From the IMG/VR virus record IMGVR_UViG_2585427764_000006: 5,513 bases of DNA; one strand, given 5' to 3'. Shown here one piece after another: positions 1 to 5,513 of this stretch (position 1 is its first letter; each line of letters starts with the position of its first letter). Source of the DNA: a virus (lineage: Duplodnaviria > Heunggongvirae > Uroviricota > Caudoviricetes). Under the pieces are notes generated by a model. The model saw only the letters and a list, made by a program, of their open reading frames with translations, did not search any database and was not told the origin of the DNA. The position numbers and the translations under genes are program-made.

Positions 1-2
1 CG

Positions 3-320
3 GCAAAAGCGTTCGCATACCTGCTGAAACAGTGGGATGCACTGAACGTGTACTGCAGTAATGGCTGGGTGGAAATCGACAACAACATCGCAGAGAACGC
101 CTTACGGGGAGTGGCCGTAGGCCGGAAAAACTGGATGTTCGCGGGTTCCGACAGCGGTGGTGAACATGCGGCGGTGTTGTACTCGCTGATCGGCACATGC
201 CGTCTGAACAATGTGGAGCCAGAAAAGTGGCTGCGTTACGTCATTGAACATATCCAGGACTGGCCGGCAAACCGGGTACGCGATCTGTTGCCCTGGAAAG
301 TTGATCTGAGCTCTCAGTAA
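3..320 (+). CDS. IS66-family transposase, C-terminal fragment (5' end outside window)
   Basis: The frame is open from position 3 (AKAFAYLLKQWDALNVYCSNGWVEIDNNIAENALRGVAVGRKNWMFAGSDSGGEHAAVLYSLIGTCRLNNVEPEKWLRYV...). The EIDNN-AE-ALR...GRKNW-FAGS motif block is, from memory, characteristic of the C-terminus of IS66-family DDE transposases. The GTG at 48 in the ORF track is not the true start. Confidence 0.85.
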   Translation, partial: AKAFAYLLKQWDALNVYCSNGWVEIDNNIAENALRGVAVGRKNWMFAGSDSGGEHAAVLYSLIGTCRLNNVEPEKWLRYVIEHIQDWPANRVRDLLPWKVDLSSQ

Positions 321-321
321 A

Positions 322-350
322 TATCAATACGGTTCTGACGAGTCGCTTAC
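322..350 (-). repeat. Candidate IS66 terminal inverted repeat (right end)
   Basis: The minus strand reads 5'-GTAAGCGACTCGTCAGAACCGTATTGATAT from position 350. The exact IR length cannot be fixed without the left end. Confidence 0.5.
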
Positions 351-351
351 C

Positions 352-1479
352 TTCAGCATCCGGACGTTCGCCAATTTTCGCCTCCCACGTCTCACCGAGC
401 GTGGTGTTTACGAAGGTTTTACGTTTTCCCGTATCCCCTTTCGTTTTCATCCAGTCTTTGACAATCTGCACCCAGGTGGTGAACGGGCTGTACACCGTCC
501 AGATGTGAAAGGTCACGCTGTCCGGCGGCTCAATCTCTTCACCGGATGACGAAAACCAGAGAATGCCATCACGGGTCCAGATCCCGGTCTTTTCGCAGAT
601 ATAACGGGCATCAGTGAAGTCCAGCTCCTGCTGGCGGATGACGCAGGCATTATGCTCGCAGAGATAAAACACGCTGGAGGGGTCATCCGGCGTCCATTTG
701 AGGCCAAACGGCGTCTCTTTGTCGCCAAATTTAAGATACTGCTCCTCCCCGCAGTGCGGGCAGGCAACATGAAAACGCATAAAATGCGGGGATTCACTGG
801 CTGCACGCTCAATCTGGCAGGTGCCTCTCACTTTGGGCGTGGAGCCACGGATGGACTTTGGCCAGACCGAGCCTTCAATACGTTTGTCGCCAAGGAACGT
901 CGGAGAGCCTTCCTGTTCAATATCCTCATCAAAGGCAGCAAGTTCATCATAACCCGCCACATCCACCGACTTTTCACGGTAGTTTTTTGCCGCTTTACCG
1001 CCCAGGCACCAGAAGCCACGACCATTGGAAAAACGCTTCATAGTGAGCGTGTTATCCCGGTGCTTTTTGCCATACCACGGAGCCAGCGCCAGCAGCGACG
1101 GAATATCGCGGATGGTCGGCTCAACGTGGGTTTTCATAAAGTTCTCGGCATCACCATCCGTCGGCAACCAGATAAGGGTGTTGCGCTGCTTATGCTCTAT
1201 GAAGTAGGCATAAACACCCAGCAGCATTTTGGAATAACCAACACGGGCAGACTTCACCACATTCACCTCGCGGACGTAGTCACTGCCCATCGCATTCATG
1301 ATGGCCCGCTGAAAGGGCAGTGTTTCCCAGCGCCCTTCCTGGTATGCGGATTCTTTCGGGAGATAGTAATTGGCATCCGCCCATTCAACGGCGGTCTGTG
1401 GCTCCGGCCGGAACAGTGAGCGAAGCCCGGCGCGGACAAAATGCCGCAGCCTGTTAACCTGACTGTTCGATATATTCAC
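352..1479 (-). pseudogene. A: Terminase large subunit (lambda gpA-like), N-terminal 376 codons, interrupted by the IS66 insertion
   Basis: The translation MNISNSQVNRLRHFVRAGLRSLFRPEPQTAVEWADANYYLPKES...TLGETWEAKIGERPDAE matches lambda gpA as I recall it. Full-length gpA is about 641 aa. After codon 376 the ORF runs into IS-derived sequence (GKRLVRTVLIFTESSDQ...) and stops at 241. The start overlaps the Nu1 3' end by 26 nt, as in lambda. Confidence 0.9.
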
Positions 1480-1999
1480 TCAGCAACCCCGGTATCAGTT
1501 CATCCAGCGCGGCTGCTTTGTTCATGGCTTTGATGATATCCCGTTTCAGGAAATCAACATGTCGGTTTTCCAGTTCCGGAAAACGCCGCTGCACCGACAG
1601 GGGGATCCCGTCGAGAATACTGGCAATTTCACCTGCGATCCGCGACAGCACGAAAGTACAGAATGCGGTTTCCACCACTTCAGCGGAGTCTCTGGCATTC
1701 TTCAGTTCCTGTGCGTCGGCCTGCGCACGCGTAAGTCGATGGCGTTCGTACTCAATAGTCCCTGGCTGGAGATCTGTCTCGCTGGCCTGCCGCAGTTCTT
1801 CAACTTCCCGGCGCAGCTTTTCGTTCTCAATTTCAGCATCCCTTTCGGCATACCATCTTATAACGGCGGCAGAGTCATAAAGCACCTCATTACCCTTGCC
1901 ACCGCCTCGCAGAACGGGCATTCCCTGTTCCTGCCAGTTCTGAATGGTACGGATACTCGCACCGAAAATGTCAGCCAGCTGCTTTTTGTTGACTTCCAT
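1454..1999 (-). CDS. nu1: Terminase small subunit (lambda gpNu1-like), apparently intact
   Basis: The 181-aa product MEVNKKQLADIFGASIRTIQNWQEQGMPVLRGGGKGNEVLYDSAAV... is near-identical to lambda Nu1 as recalled. It begins with the winged-helix DNA-binding region and lies immediately downstream of cosB. Confidence 0.95.
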   Translation of the reverse strand: MEVNKKQLADIFGASIRTIQNWQEQGMPVLRGGGKGNEVLYDSAAVIRWYAERDAEIENEKLRREVEELRQASETDLQPGTIEYERHRLTRAQADAQELKNARDSAEVVETAFCTFVLSRIAGEIASILDGIPLSVQRRFPELENRHVDFLKRDIIKAMNKAAALDELIPGLLSEYIEQSG

Positions 2000-2024
2000 T
2001 GTTCATTCCACGGACAAAAACAGA

Positions 2025-2079
2025 GAAAGGAAACGACAGAGGCCAAAAAGCCCGTTTTCAGCACCTGTCGTTTCCTTTC
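2025..2079 (-). promoter_or_regulatory. cosB terminase-binding R elements (R1/R2-like inverted pair)
   Basis: GAAAGGAAACGACAG at 2025-2039 and its exact reverse complement CTGTCGTTTCCTTTC at 2065-2079 form a perfect 15-bp inverted pair separated by 25 bp. They sit where lambda cosB R1/R2 sit relative to the Nu1 start. An R3-like copy (GAAGAACGGAAATG) is at about 2121-2138. Confidence 0.7.
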
Positions 2080-2176
2080 TTTTCAGGGGGTATTTTAAAT
2101 AAAAACATTAAGTTACAACGAAGAAGAACGGAAATGCCTTAAACCGGAAAATTTTCATAAATAGCGAAAACCCGCG

Positions 2177-2188
2177 AGGTCGCCGCCC
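2177..2188 (-). other. cosN (12-nt cohesive-end segment of the cos site)
   Basis: The plus strand reads AGGTCGCCGCCC, the reverse complement of the lambda cohesive end GGGCGGCGACCT. The flanks also match the lambda ends as recalled (CGCGGGTTTTCGCTATTTATGAAAATTTTCCGG on one side, CCGACAGGTTACG on the other). Confidence 0.85.
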
Positions 2189-2220
2189 CGTAACCTGTCG
2201 GATCGCCGGAAAGGACCCGC
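2189..2220 (-). promoter_or_regulatory. cosQ-containing region (packaging termination element) adjacent to cosN
   Basis: CGTAACCTGTCGGATCGCCGGAAAGGACCCGC is the reverse complement of the sequence that directly precedes cosN at the lambda right end, with apparently one substitution relative to my recollection of lambda. Confidence 0.5.
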
Positions 2221-2224
2221 AAAA

Positions 2225-2239
2225 TGATAATAATTATCA
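2225..2239. promoter_or_regulatory. Fur-box-like 7-1-7 palindrome (candidate iron-responsive operator)
   Basis: TGATAATAATTATCA is a perfect inverted repeat, TGATAAT-n-ATTATCA, matching the core Fur box motif. It lies about 150 bp upstream of the DUF3950 start codon on the plus strand. Confidence 0.4.
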
Positions 2240-2387
2240 TCTGCATGTCACAACGTGCATCTACGCCATCAAACCACGTCAAATAATCAATTATGACGCA
2301 GGTATCATATTAATTGATCTGCATCAACTTAACGTAAAAACAACTTCAGACAATACAAATCAGCGACACTGAATACGGGACAACCTC

Positions 2388-2621
2388 ATGTCAACGAAGA
2401 ACAGAACCCGCAGAACAACAACCCGCAACATCCGCTTTCCTAACCAAATGATTGAACAAATTAACATCGCTCTTGATCAAAAAGGGTCCGGGAATTTCTC
2501 AGCCTGGGTCATTGAAGCCTGCCGCCGGAGACTGTGCTCAGAAAAAAGAGTTTCTCCTGAAGCAAACAAAGAAAAGAGTGACATTACTGAATTGCTCAGA
2601 AAACAGATCAGACCAGATTGA
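2388..2621 (+). CDS. Small basic protein, DUF3950 family (YnfO/YlcI-like prophage protein)
   Basis: The 77-aa ORF MSTKNRTRRTTTRNIRFPNQMIEQINIALDQKGSGNFSAWVIEACRRRL... resembles the small proteins encoded next to noh/Nu1 in E. coli cryptic prophages. Its orientation is opposite to the late genes and the local sequence is AT-rich. Confidence 0.8.
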   Translation: MSTKNRTRRTTTRNIRFPNQMIEQINIALDQKGSGNFSAWVIEACRRRLCSEKRVSPEANKEKSDITELLRKQIRPD

Positions 2622-2677
2622 AGCAATTTAGATAATCGTGCAGACTACACCCCTCATATCACATGGAAGGTACTACA

Positions 2678-3088
2678 ATGGCTCAGGTTGCCATTTTTAA
2701 ACAAATATTCAATAAAGTGCGAAATAATTTAAACTATCACTGGTTTTATTCTGAACTAAAACGTCACAATGTCTCACATTACATTTACTATTTAGCCACA
2801 GAGAATATTCATCTTGTTCTTGAAAACGATAATACGGTTTTAATAAAAGGACAGGGTAAGGTTGTAAATGTAAGATTTTCAAAAAATAAATGCCTTATAG
2901 AAGCCACCTTAAAAGGATTCAAATCAGGAGAGTTATCATTTTACGAATACAGGAAAAATCTTGCTACAGCAGGGGTTTTCAGATGGATTACAAATATCCA
3001 CGAAAACAAAAGGTATTACTATACCTTTGATAATTCATTACTCTTTACTGAGAACATTCAGAACACTACACAAATATTTCCGCACTAA
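2678..3088 (+). CDS. DUF1398 family protein (YbcV/YdfO-like prophage protein)
   Basis: The ORF track gives 2663-3088, but the second ATG at 2678 is preceded by GGAAGG with about 6 nt spacing, so [14 protein letters not shown]... is the likelier start. The C-terminal block [38 protein letters not shown] is characteristic of this family as I recall it. GC content is low, about 25-30% by eye. Confidence 0.8.
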
Positions 3089-3344
3089 ATCATAACGTCC
3101 GGTTTCTTCCGTGCCAGAACCGGACTCGCTGGCATGATGAAATATGTGTACCCGGTAACCCCGGTGTGCATCGTTTTTGATTATTCCCACACACTCGCGC
3201 AGAAGGAGTTCCCCGTCGGGCTACGGTCTCTGTTAATACGGGAATACGGCGACGATACAGCGCATGATGTGTCAGGCTTGAATACCTTTATCCTTTAAAA
3301 GGGATATCAGTTAAGTTATCCCGTGTAGGGTATAAGCCATTATC

Positions 3345-3373
3345 AAAGCCACTCTGTAGGAAGTGGCTTTTGT
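3345..3373 (+). terminator. Candidate intrinsic terminator for the plus-strand moron genes
   Basis: AAAGCCACT (3345-3353) pairs with AGTGGCTTT (3362-3370) around an 8-nt loop, followed by TTTTG. The GC core is only 6 bp, so this is weak to moderate. Confidence 0.3.
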
Positions 3374-3378
3374 AATGG

Positions 3379-3405
3379 CAATAAAAAGCCCCGCGAATGC
3401 GAGGC
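3379..3405 (-). terminator. Candidate rho-independent terminator downstream of the Rz/Rz1 lysis genes
   Basis: On the minus strand GCCTCGC-ATTC-GCGGGGC forms a 7-bp GC-rich stem (one G-U pair) followed directly by TTTTTAT. It sits about 175 bp downstream of the Rz stop. Confidence 0.45.
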
Positions 3406-3579
3406 TAAATCCTGGTATTTGTAATGACTGGCTCTTATCTCAACGCAGCCCCTTACCGCGCGCAAAATGCTCAATATCAAGCATCAGCAATGAGATGTTT
3501 AATCTGGATTCACTCCAGAAGTGAGCACCACCCTGTCTACAGAGCCAGATGTGAAGGATGATGAGTAAAATTATCGCTA

Positions 3580-4047
3580 TCATCGAAGGCATTGCGTCCT
3601 GATGTATTCCTGAAGCGTTCTCAGTGCTGTTTGGTCGCGGATAATTCCGTCCCGGATACCGAGAACGTTTCGTCCAGCAACTGGAGAGAGTTCGACGGTG
3701 GCATCATTGCCCATGCCGGAGGCGCTGGAGGTTTCGGCTGAGGATGGCACAGGGCATTTTCCTTTGACGAGCACCCGACCACCATTATCAAGCTTGCGCC
3801 GAAGAGCATCATTTTCAGCTTTCGCATCAGCTAACTCCTTCGTGTATTTATCATCGAGTGCATCAGCATCACGCTGGCGCTGCTGCATGTCAGTAATGGT
3901 GGCGTTCGCCTTCTCCAGTTCACTGGCCTTGTTATCGCGCTGTTCTTTGTAGGCGATTGCATTATCACGGTAATGATTAACAGCCCATGACAGGCAGACG
4001 ATGATGCAGATAACCAGAGCGGAGATAATCGCGGTTACCCTGCTCAT
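3580..4047 (-). CDS. Rz: Rz i-spanin (inner-membrane spanin subunit)
   Basis: [31 protein letters not shown]... matches the lambda Rz N-terminus with its single N-terminal transmembrane helix and coiled-coil region. The probable start is the ATG at 4047-4045, which overlaps the R stop as ATGA; the ORF track starts 4 codons earlier. The C-terminal third diverges from lambda Rz. Confidence 0.9.
3621..3827 (-). CDS. Rz1: Rz1 o-spanin (outer-membrane lipoprotein), embedded in the +1 frame of Rz
   Basis: [21 protein letters not shown]... has a lipobox (VVGC) followed by a proline-rich segment ([11 protein letters not shown]), and lies wholly inside Rz in another frame, the classic embedded-spanin architecture. 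Confidence 0.8.
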
Positions 4048-4541
4048 TGTTGCCCCCACAAACAGACCTCACGCTCAATCTCACGACGAGTCATCAGGCC
4101 TTTCCATTGCTTACCGCCAGCGTATGCCCAGCGACGTAGCTGGTCACATGCGCCCTTGATATCGCCCTGGTTTATTTTGCGAAGAAGAGTAGATGTTCTG
4201 AAATTGCCTGCGCCCACGTTATAGACGAACGAGTAAAGAGCGCCGCGCGTTGTTTCCGGTATATCGACTTTGATGTACGGGTTAATTTGTCTGGCTACCG
4301 TGGCAAGGTCTTTATTCAGGAGGGCTTTGCATTCTGCTTCGGTATACGTTTTACCGGGAATGATGTCTTTTCCTGTATGCCCGTGACATACAGTCCATAC
4401 GCCAACGATATCTTTGTATGGTATGTAGCTGACACCTTCCAGACCATCGTTACCACTTGGGCCAGTGATTAACACTGATGCTATAGCAATTGCTCCGCCA
4501 CCAATAGCAGCAGCAACGGCTTTTCGTAATGATGGAGGCAT
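4044..4541 (-). CDS. R: SAR endolysin (phage 21 R-type lysozyme)
   Basis: The 165-aa product has an N-terminal Gly/Ala-rich weakly hydrophobic signal-anchor-release domain ([18 protein letters not shown]), then a T4-lysozyme-like catalytic triad at E35, D44 and T50. It is near-identical to phage 21 R as recalled. The start overlaps the S stop (TAATG). Confidence 0.93.
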
Positions 4542-4756
4542 TATTCACCTCTCGCAGCCTTGCGCTTATCTTCTTTAATCTTGAAATAAAGGTTTGTCAG
4601 GTACGTCAGCAGGCCAAATACCAAGCTACCCAGCACACCTATTGCTGCCCACTGTGAGGGCGTGACTTTATCGAGCAACTGTAAAAACCAGTAGCCAGCA
4701 CTGCCTGCGGAGGTGCCGTAGGCAATGCCCGTTGTTAACTTATCCATGGATTTCAT
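4541..4756 (-). CDS. S: Pinholin (phage 21 S-type), dual-start class II holin
   Basis: The 71-aa product [26 protein letters not shown]... has the dual-start motif Met1-Lys-Ser-Met4 (antiholin and holin forms), two transmembrane segments and a charged C-terminus. A strong Shine-Dalgarno GGAGGTGAGGC lies immediately upstream. Confidence 0.93.
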
Positions 4757-4850
4757 AGCCTCACCTCCGCAAATAACGGATGGTGTACACGGTTCGGAAC
4801 GAAGAGGAAAGGTATAGAAGTTACATTAGCGTAAGGCTTGAACATCTATT

Positions 4851-4882
4851 CAAAAAGAAAAACGCCGCGATTATTCTGGCGT
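4851..4882 (-). terminator. Candidate tR'-like intrinsic terminator upstream of S
   Basis: On the minus strand ACGCC-(11-nt loop)-GGCGT is followed by TTTTTCTTTTTG, about 105 nt upstream of the S start codon. The stem is short (5 bp), so this is tentative. The position resembles the lambda late-leader terminator that Q antiterminates. Confidence 0.3.
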
Positions 4883-5002
4883 AGCTGAAAGCATCATACA
4901 ATTATCAAATACGAAAATTACAAAATCATTAAAACGCATCACGTTACATCATGTCTTTTTCTAAAAAAAATCTTGATGAATATTGATGGTGCGTATTACC
5001 GT

Positions 5003-5092
5003 GAAGGAGATCGGTGAGTAACATCGATGGAGATCGGTTCGTGTCACTTTCACAGAACCGTTTTTAAATTACCTTCACTGATCTCCTTCGGT
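5003..5092. repeat. IS21-family terminal repeat cluster
   Basis: GGAGATCGGT occurs as direct copies at 5006-5015 and 5029-5038, the first as GAAGGAGATCGGT from 5003. An inverted copy (GATCTCCTTC, reverse complement of GAAGGAGATC) lies at 5081-5090, overlapping the last istB codons. Confidence 0.5.
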
Positions 5093-5512
5093 CAACGGAG
5101 ATTGTATTTTCCGCATTGATTCTCCTTGAAGTTCGATCTTGATACTGCCATGAACCAGTCGATCTAGGATGGCATCCGCATGTGTGGAGTCTCCGATCAT
5201 TTTGTACCAGTTTTCCACCGGCAACTGGCTCACTACGATGATTGAGCCTCGTTGGTACATCAGATCCACTATTTCCAGCAGGTCGCTACGCTGTTCTGAT
5301 GAGAGAGGTTCCAGCCCCCAGTCATCCAGAAGCAGCAGATCGCTATTATTCAGCCTGGTCAAAAGTTTGCTGTATCTTCCATCAGCATGCCCCTGATAGC
5401 ACTGTTCCATCAGCGCTTTAAGGCGATAATAGTAGACCTTGTATCCCTGTCGGCAGGCATTATGACCAAGTGCACATGCCAGGAACGTTTTACCGCTGCC
5501 GGTGGCCCCGGT
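5075..5512 (-). CDS. istB: IS21-family IstB ATP-binding helper protein, C-terminal portion (5' end outside window)
   Basis: The frame is open to the window edge: TGATGSGKTFLACALGHNACRQGYKVYYYRLKALMEQCYQ... contains a Walker A P-loop (GATGSGKT), then a Walker B-like LLLLDDWG. The ORF track shows only the part from the internal Met at 5410. Confidence 0.88.
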   Translation of the reverse strand, partial: TGATGSGKTFLACALGHNACRQGYKVYYYRLKALMEQCYQGHADGRYSKLLTRLNNSDLLLLDDWGLEPLSSEQRSDLLEIVDLMYQRGSIIVVSQLPVENWYKMIGDSTHADAILDRLVHGSIKIELQGESMRKIQSPLTEGDQ

Positions 5513-5513
5513 C

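What the first reader, a model, noticed from the sequence alone, without database searches (positions are those of the whole stretch)
1..5513. Two different IS families bracket an otherwise intact cos-lysis core: a decaying prophage with selectively preserved modules
Within 5.5 kb an IS66-family and an IS21-family element are inserted in head-to-head orientation (their transposition genes are transcribed toward each other, on the plus and minus strands respectively), enclosing cos, Nu1, the moron pair and the full lysis cassette. A pair of unrelated IS elements does not form a classical composite transposon, but the arrangement marks the region as a hotspot of IS activity and could allow IS-mediated rearrangement or deletion of the intervening segment. 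The contrast between intact small genes and the disrupted large terminase gene is worth noting, though a large gene is simply a larger target.
Basis: inference. Interest (0 to 1): 0.35.

Follow-up and report, generated by a model that had tools for sequence, protein, structure and literature searches.

The report
IS-bounded contig from a decaying lambda-like prophage
The window is one whole short-read contig from a lambda-like E. coli prophage that was hit by two ordinary insertion sequences; the assembler broke the genome at those repeats, so the "bracketing" comes mostly from assembly and the biology is routine early prophage decay.

Summary
An ISCro1-like IS66-family end (1-350, +) and an ISEc12 (IS21-family) end (4990-5513, istB on -) flank a 4,639-bp core. 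The core holds truncated terminase A, Nu1, an exact lambda cosN, YlcI and DUF1398 morons, Rz/Rz1, an R21/RrrD-type lysozyme and an S21-type holin.

The window is an entire draft contig (JORX01000098.1, E. coli 6-537-08_S3_C2). Its ends lie inside multi-copy IS because the assembly broke there. Neighbouring contigs carry the complementary junctions, with an 8-bp (CTTCAGCA) and a 5-bp (GATGG) target duplication. Both IS are therefore simple insertions into one colinear lambda-like prophage. They are not a composite unit.

The neighbouring contigs show two further lesions: a -1 frameshift in the portal gene, and a 385-bp deletion that removes gpD. "Decaying prophage" is therefore supported.

"Selectively preserved modules" is not supported. 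The core is 100% identical to an apparently complete prophage in strain 101EVA, so its intactness more simply reflects recent decay.

None of 5,426 complete E. coli genomes has both junctions, and many carry other IS in the same region.

One minor curiosity: each IS re-used exactly the same target position in an independent lineage.

This is ordinary and already known. Interest is low.

The parts
1..350 (+). Right (IRR) end of an ISCro1-like IS66-family element. It holds the last 105 codons of tnpC (3-320, stop at 318-320) and a terminal inverted repeat ending ...GGTTCTGACGAGTCGCTTAC at 350.
   Evidence: Pfam PF03050/PF13817 and NF033517. It is 99.4-100% identical to annotated ISCro1-family copies. 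The end was defined by comparison with the uninterrupted terminase gene.
351..358 (.). 8-bp target site CTTCAGCA, duplicated on the far side of the IS66 element in contig JORX01000030.1.
   Evidence: L015 reads ...GAGCCGGTTAC|TGCTGAAG|TGATGGCAGAG, and its phage sequence starts at window-equivalent position 358.
351..1479 (-). Terminase large subunit gpA, codons 1-376 of 641. The ATPase domain is kept and almost all of the nuclease domain is lost. The called ORF 241-1479 adds 36 codons read from the IS.
   Evidence: PF05876 matches residues 47-285. PF20454 matches only profile positions 2-59 of 294. The segment is 100% identical to the intact gene in 101EVA.
1454..1999 (-). Terminase small subunit Nu1 (nohD), intact.
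   Evidence: PF07471, 336 bits, full length. PGAP names its equivalents nohD.
2000..2240 (-). Lambda-type cos region. cosN, GGGCGGCGACCT, is at 2177-2188. The cosB side runs toward Nu1 and includes the 26-nt hairpin at 2024-2080.
   Evidence: One exact cosN match against 0.02 expected. Sequence read. Inverted repeat I1.
2388..2621 (+). YlcI/YnfO family (DUF3950) moron gene.
   Evidence: PF13132 and NF041551. It lies on the opposite strand to the late genes.
2663..3088 (+). DUF1398 family moron gene (PGAP start at 2678), in a 31-36% GC island.
   Evidence: PF07166. Composition profile.
3387..3406 (-). Terminator-like G+C-rich hairpin followed by a T-run, downstream of the late lysis genes.
   Evidence: Consensus scan only. 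Function was not tested.
3440..3592 (-). Conserved 50-aa hydrophobic ORF that overlaps the end of Rz. Annotated as a hypothetical protein in the related complete genomes.
   Evidence: No Pfam or NCBIfam hit.
3580..4059 (-). Rz i-spanin (PGAP start at 4047), with the Rz1 o-spanin lipoprotein embedded at 3621-3827. Both are intact.
   Evidence: PF03245 and PF06085. A lipobox, VVGC, is visible in the translation.
4044..4541 (-). Phage-21/RrrD-type lysozyme with an N-terminal signal-anchor-release segment, intact.
   Evidence: PF00959. Full-length match to PDB 4ZPU (RrrD, E 3e-109) and 3HDE.
4541..4756 (-). S21-type holin (essD), 71 aa with the dual-start motif MKSM, intact.
   Evidence: PF04971. 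PGAP names its equivalents essD.
4757..4989 (-). Phage DNA upstream of the holin gene. It includes the last 46 nt (4944-4989) of an AraC-like HTH moron gene that ISEc12 truncates. The 5-bp target GATGG is at 4985-4989.
   Evidence: Alignment to 101EVA. The complementary junction CCATC|IRL lies on JORP01000025.1.
4990..5513 (-). IRR end of ISEc12 (IS21 family). The terminus reads TGCGTATTACC... with GGAGATCGG repeated. The last 145 codons of istB occupy 5075-5513.
   Evidence: PF01695 and NF038214. It is 99.8% identical to annotated ISEc12. Most other copies in E. coli start matching exactly at 4990.

Best explanation
The window is one complete short-read contig, JORX01000098.1, from assembly GCA_000713415.1. 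A protein on a neighbouring contig of that assembly names the strain as E. coli 6-537-08_S3_C2. The contig comes from the late region of a lambda-like prophage with lambda-type cos/Nu1/A, a phage-21/DLP12-type S-R-Rz/Rz1 lysis cassette, and YlcI and DUF1398 morons.

Two ordinary transposition events hit this prophage.
1. An ISCro1-like IS66-family element inserted after codon 376 of terminase gene A, with the 8-bp duplication CTTCAGCA.
2. An ISEc12 (IS21 family) inserted 46 nt before the end of an AraC-like moron gene, 233 nt upstream of the holin gene, with the 5-bp duplication GATGG.

Both IS are multi-copy repeats, so the assembler stopped inside them. That is why the window begins and ends in an IS. 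The rest of the prophage lies colinear on the neighbouring contigs and carries two more lesions: a -1 frameshift in the portal gene and a 385-bp deletion of gpD.

Inferred consequences:
- The prophage cannot cut cos, package DNA or build heads.
- Its repressor, replication, Q and lysis genes are still intact.
- The 2.4-kb ISEc12 now separates Q/pR' from the lysis genes.
- The core is intact because the decay is recent, not because selection has been shown.
- The two unrelated IS do not act together.
For: Contig identity:
- The window equals the whole contig (reverse complement). A sister assembly has an identical 5,260-bp contig that also ends inside both IS, but at different depths.

Complementary junctions:
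- I predicted the junction proteins from 101EVA sequence plus the IS ends. They exist as exact sequences.
- They map to JORX01000030.1 in the same assembly. That contig reads IS66 left end, TGCTGAAG, then the terminase C-terminus, gpW, portal and onward to the tape-measure gene.
- They also map to JORP01000025.1. That contig runs from sieB through N, cI, O, P, Q and YbgA to HTH::CCATC::ISEc12 IRL.

Recency:
- The core, 351-4989, is 4,639/4,639 identical to an apparently complete ~45-kb prophage at the lambda attachment region (next to ybhC) of strain 101EVA.
- It is 98.8% identical to the isolated phage Kati.

Extra lesions: portal GAAAGGCTG changed to GAAAGCTG, and deletion of L010 28997-29381. 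No complete genome listed shows this deletion.

Polymorphism:
- 0 of 5,426 complete genomes have both junctions.
- 564 genomes have the uninterrupted essD-HTH site.
- Only 2 share the IS66 junction.

The two inner IS ends share no terminal repeats.
Against: - The interiors of both IS are not in any contig I could read, so their completeness is inferred only from both ends plus target duplications.
- The adjacency of the three contigs is inferred from the duplications and from colinearity with 101EVA. No read spans the junctions.
- The portal frameshift could be a sequencing error. However, it is not in a long homopolymer, and the tool reports the contig in two samples.
- No functional data exist. 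Q-modified polymerase might read through ISEc12, so lysis could remain inducible.
- 101EVA was chosen because it matches the core best, so 'zero differences' cannot be used as a statistical test against its flanks.
Confidence: 0.88

Rival explanations
1. The IS insertions are adaptive disarmament, and the cos-lysis core or the morons are kept by selection. Hosts that cripple packaging, and that uncouple the lysis genes from Q, are favoured while useful modules are retained.
For: - All three lethal lesions lie in the A-B-C/D head and packaging block, while the lysis, cos, Nu1 and early genes are intact.
- The essD-HTH interval between Q and S was hit independently by ISEc12 in both orientations and by IS1.
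- The terminase gene was hit independently by IS66 at two sites and by IS100.
Against: - The core has zero substitutions relative to an intact prophage, so there has been no time for selection to be visible.
- Inactivating terminase does not protect the host from lysis.
- The clustering is post hoc: 3 of 4 lesions in about 20% of the 26 kb examined, roughly p 0.03 before correction.
- Other strains carry IS inside Rz and next to the morons, so the core is not protected.
- 564 genomes keep the essD-HTH site uninterrupted, against 14 with an ISEc12 there.
Confidence: 0.07
2. The window is an isolated prophage remnant. IS-mediated deletions removed everything outside the two IS, as happened on one side in strain ET881.
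For: [quoted passage not shown] There the IS is cut to 789 bp and joined to a tail-fibre gene, and all head and tail genes are gone.
Against: - The same assembly holds the terminase C-terminus with the matching 8-bp duplication, followed by head and tail genes.
- The sister assembly holds the Q-to-HTH side with the matching 5-bp duplication. The protein accessions indicate that all three colony assemblies carry it.
Confidence: 0.02
3. The two IS and the core form a mobile or rearranging unit, such as a pseudo-composite transposon or an invertible or deletable segment.
For: The two IS flank a discrete 4.6-kb segment with their ends facing inward.
Against: - The IS belong to different families with unrelated termini, and no inverted repeat joins positions 350 and 4990.
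- Each IS has its own direct target duplication on its far side, which shows separate single insertions.
- The fusion ORF that marks this arrangement is on only two contigs in the whole gene collection, both in the same context.
- No inversion or deletion variant between the two IS was found in 5,426 complete genomes.
Confidence: 0.01
4. The junctions are assembly chimeras: the IS reads were wrongly joined to phage sequence.
For: The source is a fragmented 2014 draft assembly, and both joins sit at repeats.
Against: - Two assemblies give identical junctions.
- The joins fall exactly at the canonical IS termini.
- Complementary junctions with duplications of the correct length exist.
- The IS66 junction is present in two closed genomes.
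- The HTH::ISEc12 junction is also found in an unrelated ENA metagenome scaffold.
Confidence: 0.01

Closest known systems
Lambda-like (Lambdavirus-type) prophages of E. coli at the lambda attachment region, such as the apparently complete prophage of strain 101EVA and the isolated phage Kati (PP925833)
   Same: - Gene order is identical: Q ... AraC-like HTH gene, S, R, Rz/Rz1, 50-aa ORF, DUF1398, YlcI, cos, Nu1, A.
- The core is 100% identical to 101EVA over 4,639 bp.
- It is 98.8% identical to phage Kati over the matched part of the core, about 95% of it.
- cosN is an exact match.
   Different: The source copy carries A::IS66, HTH::ISEc12, a portal frameshift and a 385-bp gpD deletion.
DLP12 cryptic prophage of E. 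coli K-12 (essD-rrrD-rzpD ... ybcV, ylcI, nohD and a truncated terminase pseudogene)
   Same: - PGAP gives the window's equivalents the same gene names: essD, rrrD and nohD.
- The lysozyme matches the RrrD structure 4ZPU over its full length.
- DLP12 has the same DUF1398/YlcI morons and a truncated large terminase gene. This last point is from my own knowledge of the K-12 annotation and was not tested here.
   Different: - DLP12 is an old remnant at a different attachment site that has lost its head and tail genes.
- Here the rest of the prophage is still present and nearly identical to intact relatives.
Phage 21 lysis cassette (pinholin S21, SAR endolysin R21, Rz/Rz1 spanins)
   Same: - PF04971 'Bacteriophage P21 holin S', 71 aa with the MKSM dual start.
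- A 165-aa lysozyme that matches PDB 3HDE/3HDF over its full length.
- Rz1 embedded in Rz.
   Different: None detected at the sequence level. Expression is probably altered because ISEc12 sits between Q/pR' and S (inference).
ISCro1-like IS66-family elements and ISEc12 (IS21 family) as ordinary gene-disrupting insertion sequences. One example is ISEc12 in tssM of ST131 clade C, with a 5-bp duplication (PMC10711316).
   Same: - The termini are canonical.
- Target duplications are 8 bp for the IS66-family element and 5 bp for ISEc12.
- The copies are more than 99% identical to other copies.
- The insertions are simple.
   Different: Nothing mechanistic differs. The one curiosity is that each IS re-used exactly the same position in another lineage.
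Composite transposon
   Same: Two IS flank a DNA segment.
   Different: - The IS belong to different families, have no matching ends, and each has its own target duplication.

Membership tests
IS66 family (ISCro1-like) | A TnpC DDE transposase with the IS66 C-terminal element | tested here: met
   PF03050 (E 5e-18) and PF13817 (E 6e-17) on residues from 3-320 (+). NF033517 matches positions 304-386 of 387. Only the last 105 codons are in the window.
IS66 family (ISCro1-like) | A terminal inverted repeat starting GTAAGCG (read as ...CGCTTAC at the right end) | tested here: met
   ...GACGAGTCGCTTAC ends at 350. Terminase homology resumes at 351.
IS66 family (ISCro1-like) | An 8-bp target site duplication | tested here: met
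   CTTCAGCA lies at 351-358, and TGCTGAAG lies next to the IS left end on JORX01000030.1. Other copies also have 8-bp duplications: GGAGAGAG and GTTCATCG.
IS66 family (ISCro1-like) | The accessory genes tnpA and tnpB upstream of tnpC | not testable with these tools
   They lie outside the window. Only a 149-aa TnpA-like fragment (PF01527) is seen at the end of the neighbouring contig. The IS interior is not assembled.
IS21 family (ISEc12) | An IstB helper AAA+ ATPase downstream of istA | tested here: met
   PF01695 (E 2e-46) matches positions 98-234 of 238. NF038214 also matches. The start of istA is seen on the far contig tail. The middle of the element is not assembled.
IS21 family (ISEc12) | Termini beginning TG...CA with repeated transposase-binding motifs | tested here: met
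   The window from 4990 reads TGCGTATTACCGTGAAGGAGATCGGTGAGTAACATCGATGGAGATCGG. Most E. coli copies begin matching at exactly 4990.
IS21 family (ISEc12) | A short (5-bp) target duplication | tested here: met
   GATGG lies at 4985-4989, and CCATC abuts the IRL on JORP01000025.1. L005 and L006 also show 5-bp duplications, as does EC958 (PMC10711316).
Composite transposon | Two copies of the same IS, or ends recognised by one transposase, flanking the segment, with one target duplication outside the whole unit | tested here: not met
   The two IS belong to different families. The two inner ends share no inverted repeat. Each IS carries its own duplication.
Lambda-type cos packaging module | The 12-nt cosN cohesive-end sequence next to cosB, followed by Nu1 and A | tested here: met
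   GGGCGGCGACCT matches exactly at 2177-2188 (-), against 0.02 expected. Nu1 is full length (PF07471). The A gene is present but truncated. The cosB and IHF sites were judged only by eye against remembered lambda sequence.
Phage-21-type pinholin / SAR-endolysin lysis cassette | An S21-family holin, a lysozyme with an N-terminal SAR segment, and an Rz gene with Rz1 embedded | tested here: met
   PF04971, PF00959, PF03245 and PF06085. PDB 3HDE and 4ZPU match over the full length. Function was not tested.
Moron (independently transcribed accessory genes in a prophage late region) | Opposite strand or atypical composition, with an own promoter and terminator | tested here: inconclusive
   The strand and the 31-36% GC content fit. 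Promoter-like sites are no more frequent than in shuffled sequence: 5 against 5.8.

The most novel reading that the evidence does not exclude
Both IS may have nucleotide-precise insertion hot spots in lambda-like prophages.

- ISEc12 used the same GATGG pentamer upstream of the holin gene in both orientations, in unrelated lineages.
- The ISCro1-like IS66 used the same position and orientation in two terminase alleles that differ by 1.5%. One of the differences is a SNP inside the 8-bp target.

This could reflect target selection directed by sequence or DNA structure. It could also reflect recurrent selection for hits that disable packaging and uncouple the lysis genes from Q.
Probability: 0.15. 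Interest if true: 0.35.

Novelty: already known. Interest (0 to 1): 0.12.

Why it matters
Its main value is as a caution. In draft assemblies, a window that starts and ends inside IS elements is usually a whole contig, so the apparent bracketing says little about biology.

Biologically, it is a clean snapshot of very early prophage decay in an E. coli strain. There are two IS hits, one frameshift and one small deletion, on a background that still has no differences from an intact relative across the core. It could serve as a data point for studies of prophage domestication, but it shows no new mechanism.

Tried and rejected
- Exact junction 39-42-mers gave no hits in the GTDB species representatives or in JGI metagenome contigs.
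- Literature searches for the WGS accessions and the strain name found nothing.
- An Rfam scan of the whole window at E <= 0.1 found nothing.
- Promoter and terminator scans showed no enrichment and no hybrid promoter at the ISEc12/holin junction.
- I first suspected a strict GATGG target for ISEc12, because BLAST matches to other copies ran past the IS end. A spread sample showed that most copies begin exactly at 4990, and a published copy has the duplication ACTGC. At most there is a weak ..TGG bias.
- The 25-bp flank match in strain 11 (H106) turned out to be a different, merely similar AT-rich site.
- The top whole-window hits (H1-H4) looked like the same arrangement, but their IS66 sits in Rz.
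- The remnant, composite-transposon and chimera readings were rejected. See the rival explanations.

Full report
**What is in the window**

ORF listing and Pfam/NCBIfam scans give the following map.

- Positions 1-350 are the 3' end of an IS66-family element. The tnpC gene is on the plus strand with its stop at 318-320. The terminus reads ...CGCTTAC and ends at 350.
- Positions 351-1479 (-) are the first 376 codons of a lambda-type large terminase gene A. The called ORF runs on for 36 more codons into the IS.
- Positions 1454-1999 (-) encode Nu1.
- An exact cosN, GGGCGGCGACCT, lies at 2177-2188 (-) (0.02 expected by chance). Lambda-like cosB sequence lies toward Nu1.
- Two plus-strand genes follow: YlcI/DUF3950 at 2388-2621 and DUF1398 at 2663-3088. 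They sit in a 31-36% GC island.
- A conserved 50-aa ORF lies at 3440-3592 (-).
- The lysis genes are all on the minus strand: Rz at 3580-4059 with Rz1 embedded at 3621-3827, the lysozyme at 4044-4541, and the S21-type holin at 4541-4756.
- The lysozyme matches RrrD (PDB 4ZPU) and the related entry 3HDE, which I take to be phage 21 R, over its full length.
- From 4990 to the end is the IRR end of ISEc12 (IS21 family), with the last 145 codons of istB on the minus strand.

The one wording problem is 'head-to-head'. The two transposition gene sets converge, so it is their 3' (IRR) ends that face the core.

**Why the window starts and ends in IS elements**

An exact look-up of the terminase::IS66 fusion ORF shows that the window is the reverse complement of an entire GenBank contig, JORX01000098.1 (5,513 bp, assembly GCA_000713415.1). 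A sister assembly, GCA_000713265.1, has a 5,260-bp contig identical to window 29-5288.

Both contigs stop inside both IS, but at different depths. Both IS are multi-copy in E. coli. ISEc12 sequence is found at a median of 3 places per genome among the genomes that carry it. This is the normal behaviour of a short-read assembler at repeats. The 'bracket' is largely a by-product of where the assembly stopped.

**The insertions are real and simple**

From the uninterrupted prophage of strain 101EVA, plus IS ends taken from other copies, I predicted the proteins that the complementary junctions should encode. Two of them exist as exact sequences.

- The first is a 293-aa terminase C-terminal fragment that starts in the IS66 left end. 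Its accession is KEN18745.1, from 'E. coli 6-537-08_S3_C2'.
- The second is a 247-aa fusion of the AraC-like HTH protein with the ISEc12 IRL. It has three KEM/KEN accessions.

The first lies on JORX01000030.1, in the same assembly as the window. That contig reads IS66 left end | TGCTGAAG | terminase codon 377 onward. It then continues through gpW, the portal gene, and the head and tail genes as far as the tape-measure gene.

The second lies on JORP01000025.1. That contig carries sieB, N, cI, cro, cII, O, P, ren, the nin genes, rusA, Q, lipocalin, YbgA and the HTH gene, followed by CCATC | ISEc12 IRL.

In window coordinates, the phage sequence on those contigs overlaps the window by exactly 351-358 (CTTCAGCA) and by 4985-4989 (GATGG). 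These are the 8-bp and 5-bp target duplications expected for the IS66 and IS21 families.

The three contigs therefore form one colinear lambda-like prophage with two simple IS insertions. The inner ends of the two IS share no inverted repeat. They are not a composite element.

Against 5,426 complete E. coli genomes:

- 316 genomes cover at least 80% of the window.
- None has both junctions.
- Three genomes match the core at 100% by the search: fS58a, 101EVA and STEC309. For 101EVA my own alignment gives 4,639/4,639 identical bases. For STEC309 it shows one mismatch.

In 101EVA the core is part of an apparently complete ~45-kb prophage next to ybhC, which is the lambda attachment region. The core is also 98.8% identical to the isolated phage Kati over the matched part, about 95% of the core.

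Other strains carry other IS in or next to the same 4.6 kb:

- IS66 in Rz, in H1-H4.
- IS66 in the terminase gene 177 bp from the window's site, in six genomes. At least one of them is named as ETEC, and the copy examined (L009) is complete with an 8-bp duplication.
- IS100 at window position 1282-1286, in STEC309.
- IS3 between DUF1398 and the 50-aa ORF, in fS58a.
- IS1 between the holin and HTH genes, in ET82.
- ISEc12 at exactly the window's GATGG but in the opposite orientation, in 14 genomes. In the copy examined (L005) it has an IS5 nested inside it.

The essD-HTH site is uninterrupted in 564 genomes.

The arrangement is therefore neither fixed nor ancient, and the IS are not parts of larger islands. 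The region is a frequent IS target, as prophage DNA generally is. That last generalisation is from my own knowledge. I did not test for an excess over background.

**Is the prophage decaying?**

Yes, and more so than the window shows. Relative to 101EVA, the neighbouring contig has two further lesions.

- A 1-bp deletion in the portal gene (GAAAGGCTG to GAAAGCTG) splits it into ORFs of 306 and 154 aa.
- A 385-bp deletion removes the last 37 nt of gpC and all of gpD, and fuses C to E as a 785-aa ORF.

None of the best-matching complete genomes has that deletion. All listed hits were split into two pieces spanning the undeleted 586 bp.

Truncated gpA keeps the ATPase domain but only about 58 of 294 profile positions of the nuclease domain. 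With the portal and gpD also damaged, the prophage should be unable to cut cos, package DNA or make heads. This is an inference from what is known of lambda morphogenesis.

The early-region genes, Q, and the tail genes as far as I could read them have the same lengths as their 101EVA counterparts. The immunity region is a different allele.

**Is anything selectively preserved?**

I found no evidence for it.

- The core has no substitutions relative to an intact relative.
- Every lesion is private to this clone, apart from one metagenome scaffold that shares the HTH::ISEc12 junction.
- The decay is therefore very recent, and small intact genes are the null expectation.
- Three of the four lesions fall in the A-B-C/D block, which is about 20% of the 26 kb examined. 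That gives roughly p 0.03, but the block was chosen after the fact.
- Other strains carry IS inside Rz and beside the morons, so the core is not specially protected.

**Possible consequences for expression (inference only)**

ISEc12 replaces the last 13 residues of the AraC-like protein. It also places about 2.4 kb between Q/pR' and the holin gene.

In this orientation istA-istB are co-directional with S-R-Rz. No consensus promoter spans the junction. A weak T-rich, terminator-like stretch lies between the IS and the holin gene (judged by eye). Whether lysis remains inducible is unknown.

**A minor curiosity: target-site re-use**

ISEc12 used the same pentamer in both orientations in different lineages. 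These must be independent events, because a large inversion between two copies of the IS would not change which IS end abuts a given flank.

The IS66 junction at 350/351 is also present in ET881 and SW071610. There the IS part is 350/350 identical to the window. The terminase flank, however, differs at 17 of 1,150 positions, starting 2 bp from the junction at position 352. The ET881 flank is a common natural allele that is 100% identical to many uninterrupted terminase genes.

Homologous exchange cannot bring in a SNP 2 bp from a heterology boundary. This therefore looks like a second independent insertion at the same nucleotide and in the same orientation.

In ET881 and SW071610 the IS was later cut to 789 bp and joined to a tail-fibre gene, which deleted the morphogenesis genes. 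This is the only IS-adjacent deletion I saw, and it lies outside the segment between the window's two IS.

ISEc12 has no strict target sequence. Most copies share no flank with the window, and a published copy has the duplication ACTGC (PMC10711316).

**Verdict**

The bracketing is an assembly by-product, and 'selective preservation' is unsupported. Everything here belongs to well-known categories. Interest is low.

Noticed in passing
window 4985-4990; L005 13635-13640 and 17285-17291: ISEc12 sits at exactly the same GATGG target in 14 complete E. coli genomes, but in the opposite orientation. In the copy examined (L005) an IS5 is nested inside it. An unrelated ISEc12 copy (L006) also has a GATGG duplication. 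Sampled copies show an excess of ..GG/..TGG next to the IRR. This points to a weak target bias or a hot spot.
   Followed up: partly
window 350/351; L003 and L004 9350/9351: ET881 and SW071610 carry an IS66 at the identical position and in the same orientation, but in a terminase allele that is 1.5% diverged. The first SNP is 2 bp from the junction, and that allele is common in uninterrupted genes. This looks like an independent same-site insertion. In those strains the IS is cut to 789 bp and fused to a tail-fibre gene, and all head and tail genes are deleted.
   Followed up: partly
L015 about 2420 and 4367 (contig JORX01000030.1, next to the window): The source prophage has two further lesions. 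One is a -1 frameshift in the portal gene. The other is a 385-bp deletion that removes gpD and creates an in-frame gpC-gpE fusion ORF of 785 aa. None of the best-matching complete genomes shows this deletion.
   Followed up: yes
window 3440-3592 (-): A conserved 50-aa, very hydrophobic ORF overlaps the 3' end of Rz by 13 nt. It is annotated as a hypothetical protein in the related complete genomes examined and has no Pfam or NCBIfam match. It may be a small membrane protein of the late operon.
   Followed up: no
window 3089-3439: This 350-bp stretch has no long ORF. It holds an 18-nt inverted repeat (3336-3379) and a terminator-like hairpin (3387-3406). It is a mosaic joint. ET881 has an extra 673 bp with a Rha-family gene at window 3377-3381, and fS58a has an IS3 in the same intergenic stretch. 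Rfam finds nothing there.
   Followed up: partly
window 351-1479 and its equivalents in L009 and L012: The lambda-type large terminase gene was disrupted independently at least four times: by IS66 at the window's site in two alleles, by IS66 177 bp away in six genomes (at least one of them named as ETEC), and by IS100 at window position 1282-1286 in STEC309.
   Followed up: partly
L017 (ENA ERZ28638760 scaffold_8122): A metagenome scaffold from an unrelated sample encodes the identical 247-aa HTH::ISEc12 fusion. This orientation of the insertion therefore circulates beyond the three colony assemblies.
   Followed up: no
window 4757-5090 (-): In this orientation istA-istB are co-directional with the holin, lysozyme and spanin genes, 318 nt upstream of the holin start. 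No consensus hybrid promoter was found, and only a weak T-rich hairpin (about 4855-4880) lies between them. Read-through expression of the lysis genes is conceivable but untested.
   Followed up: partly
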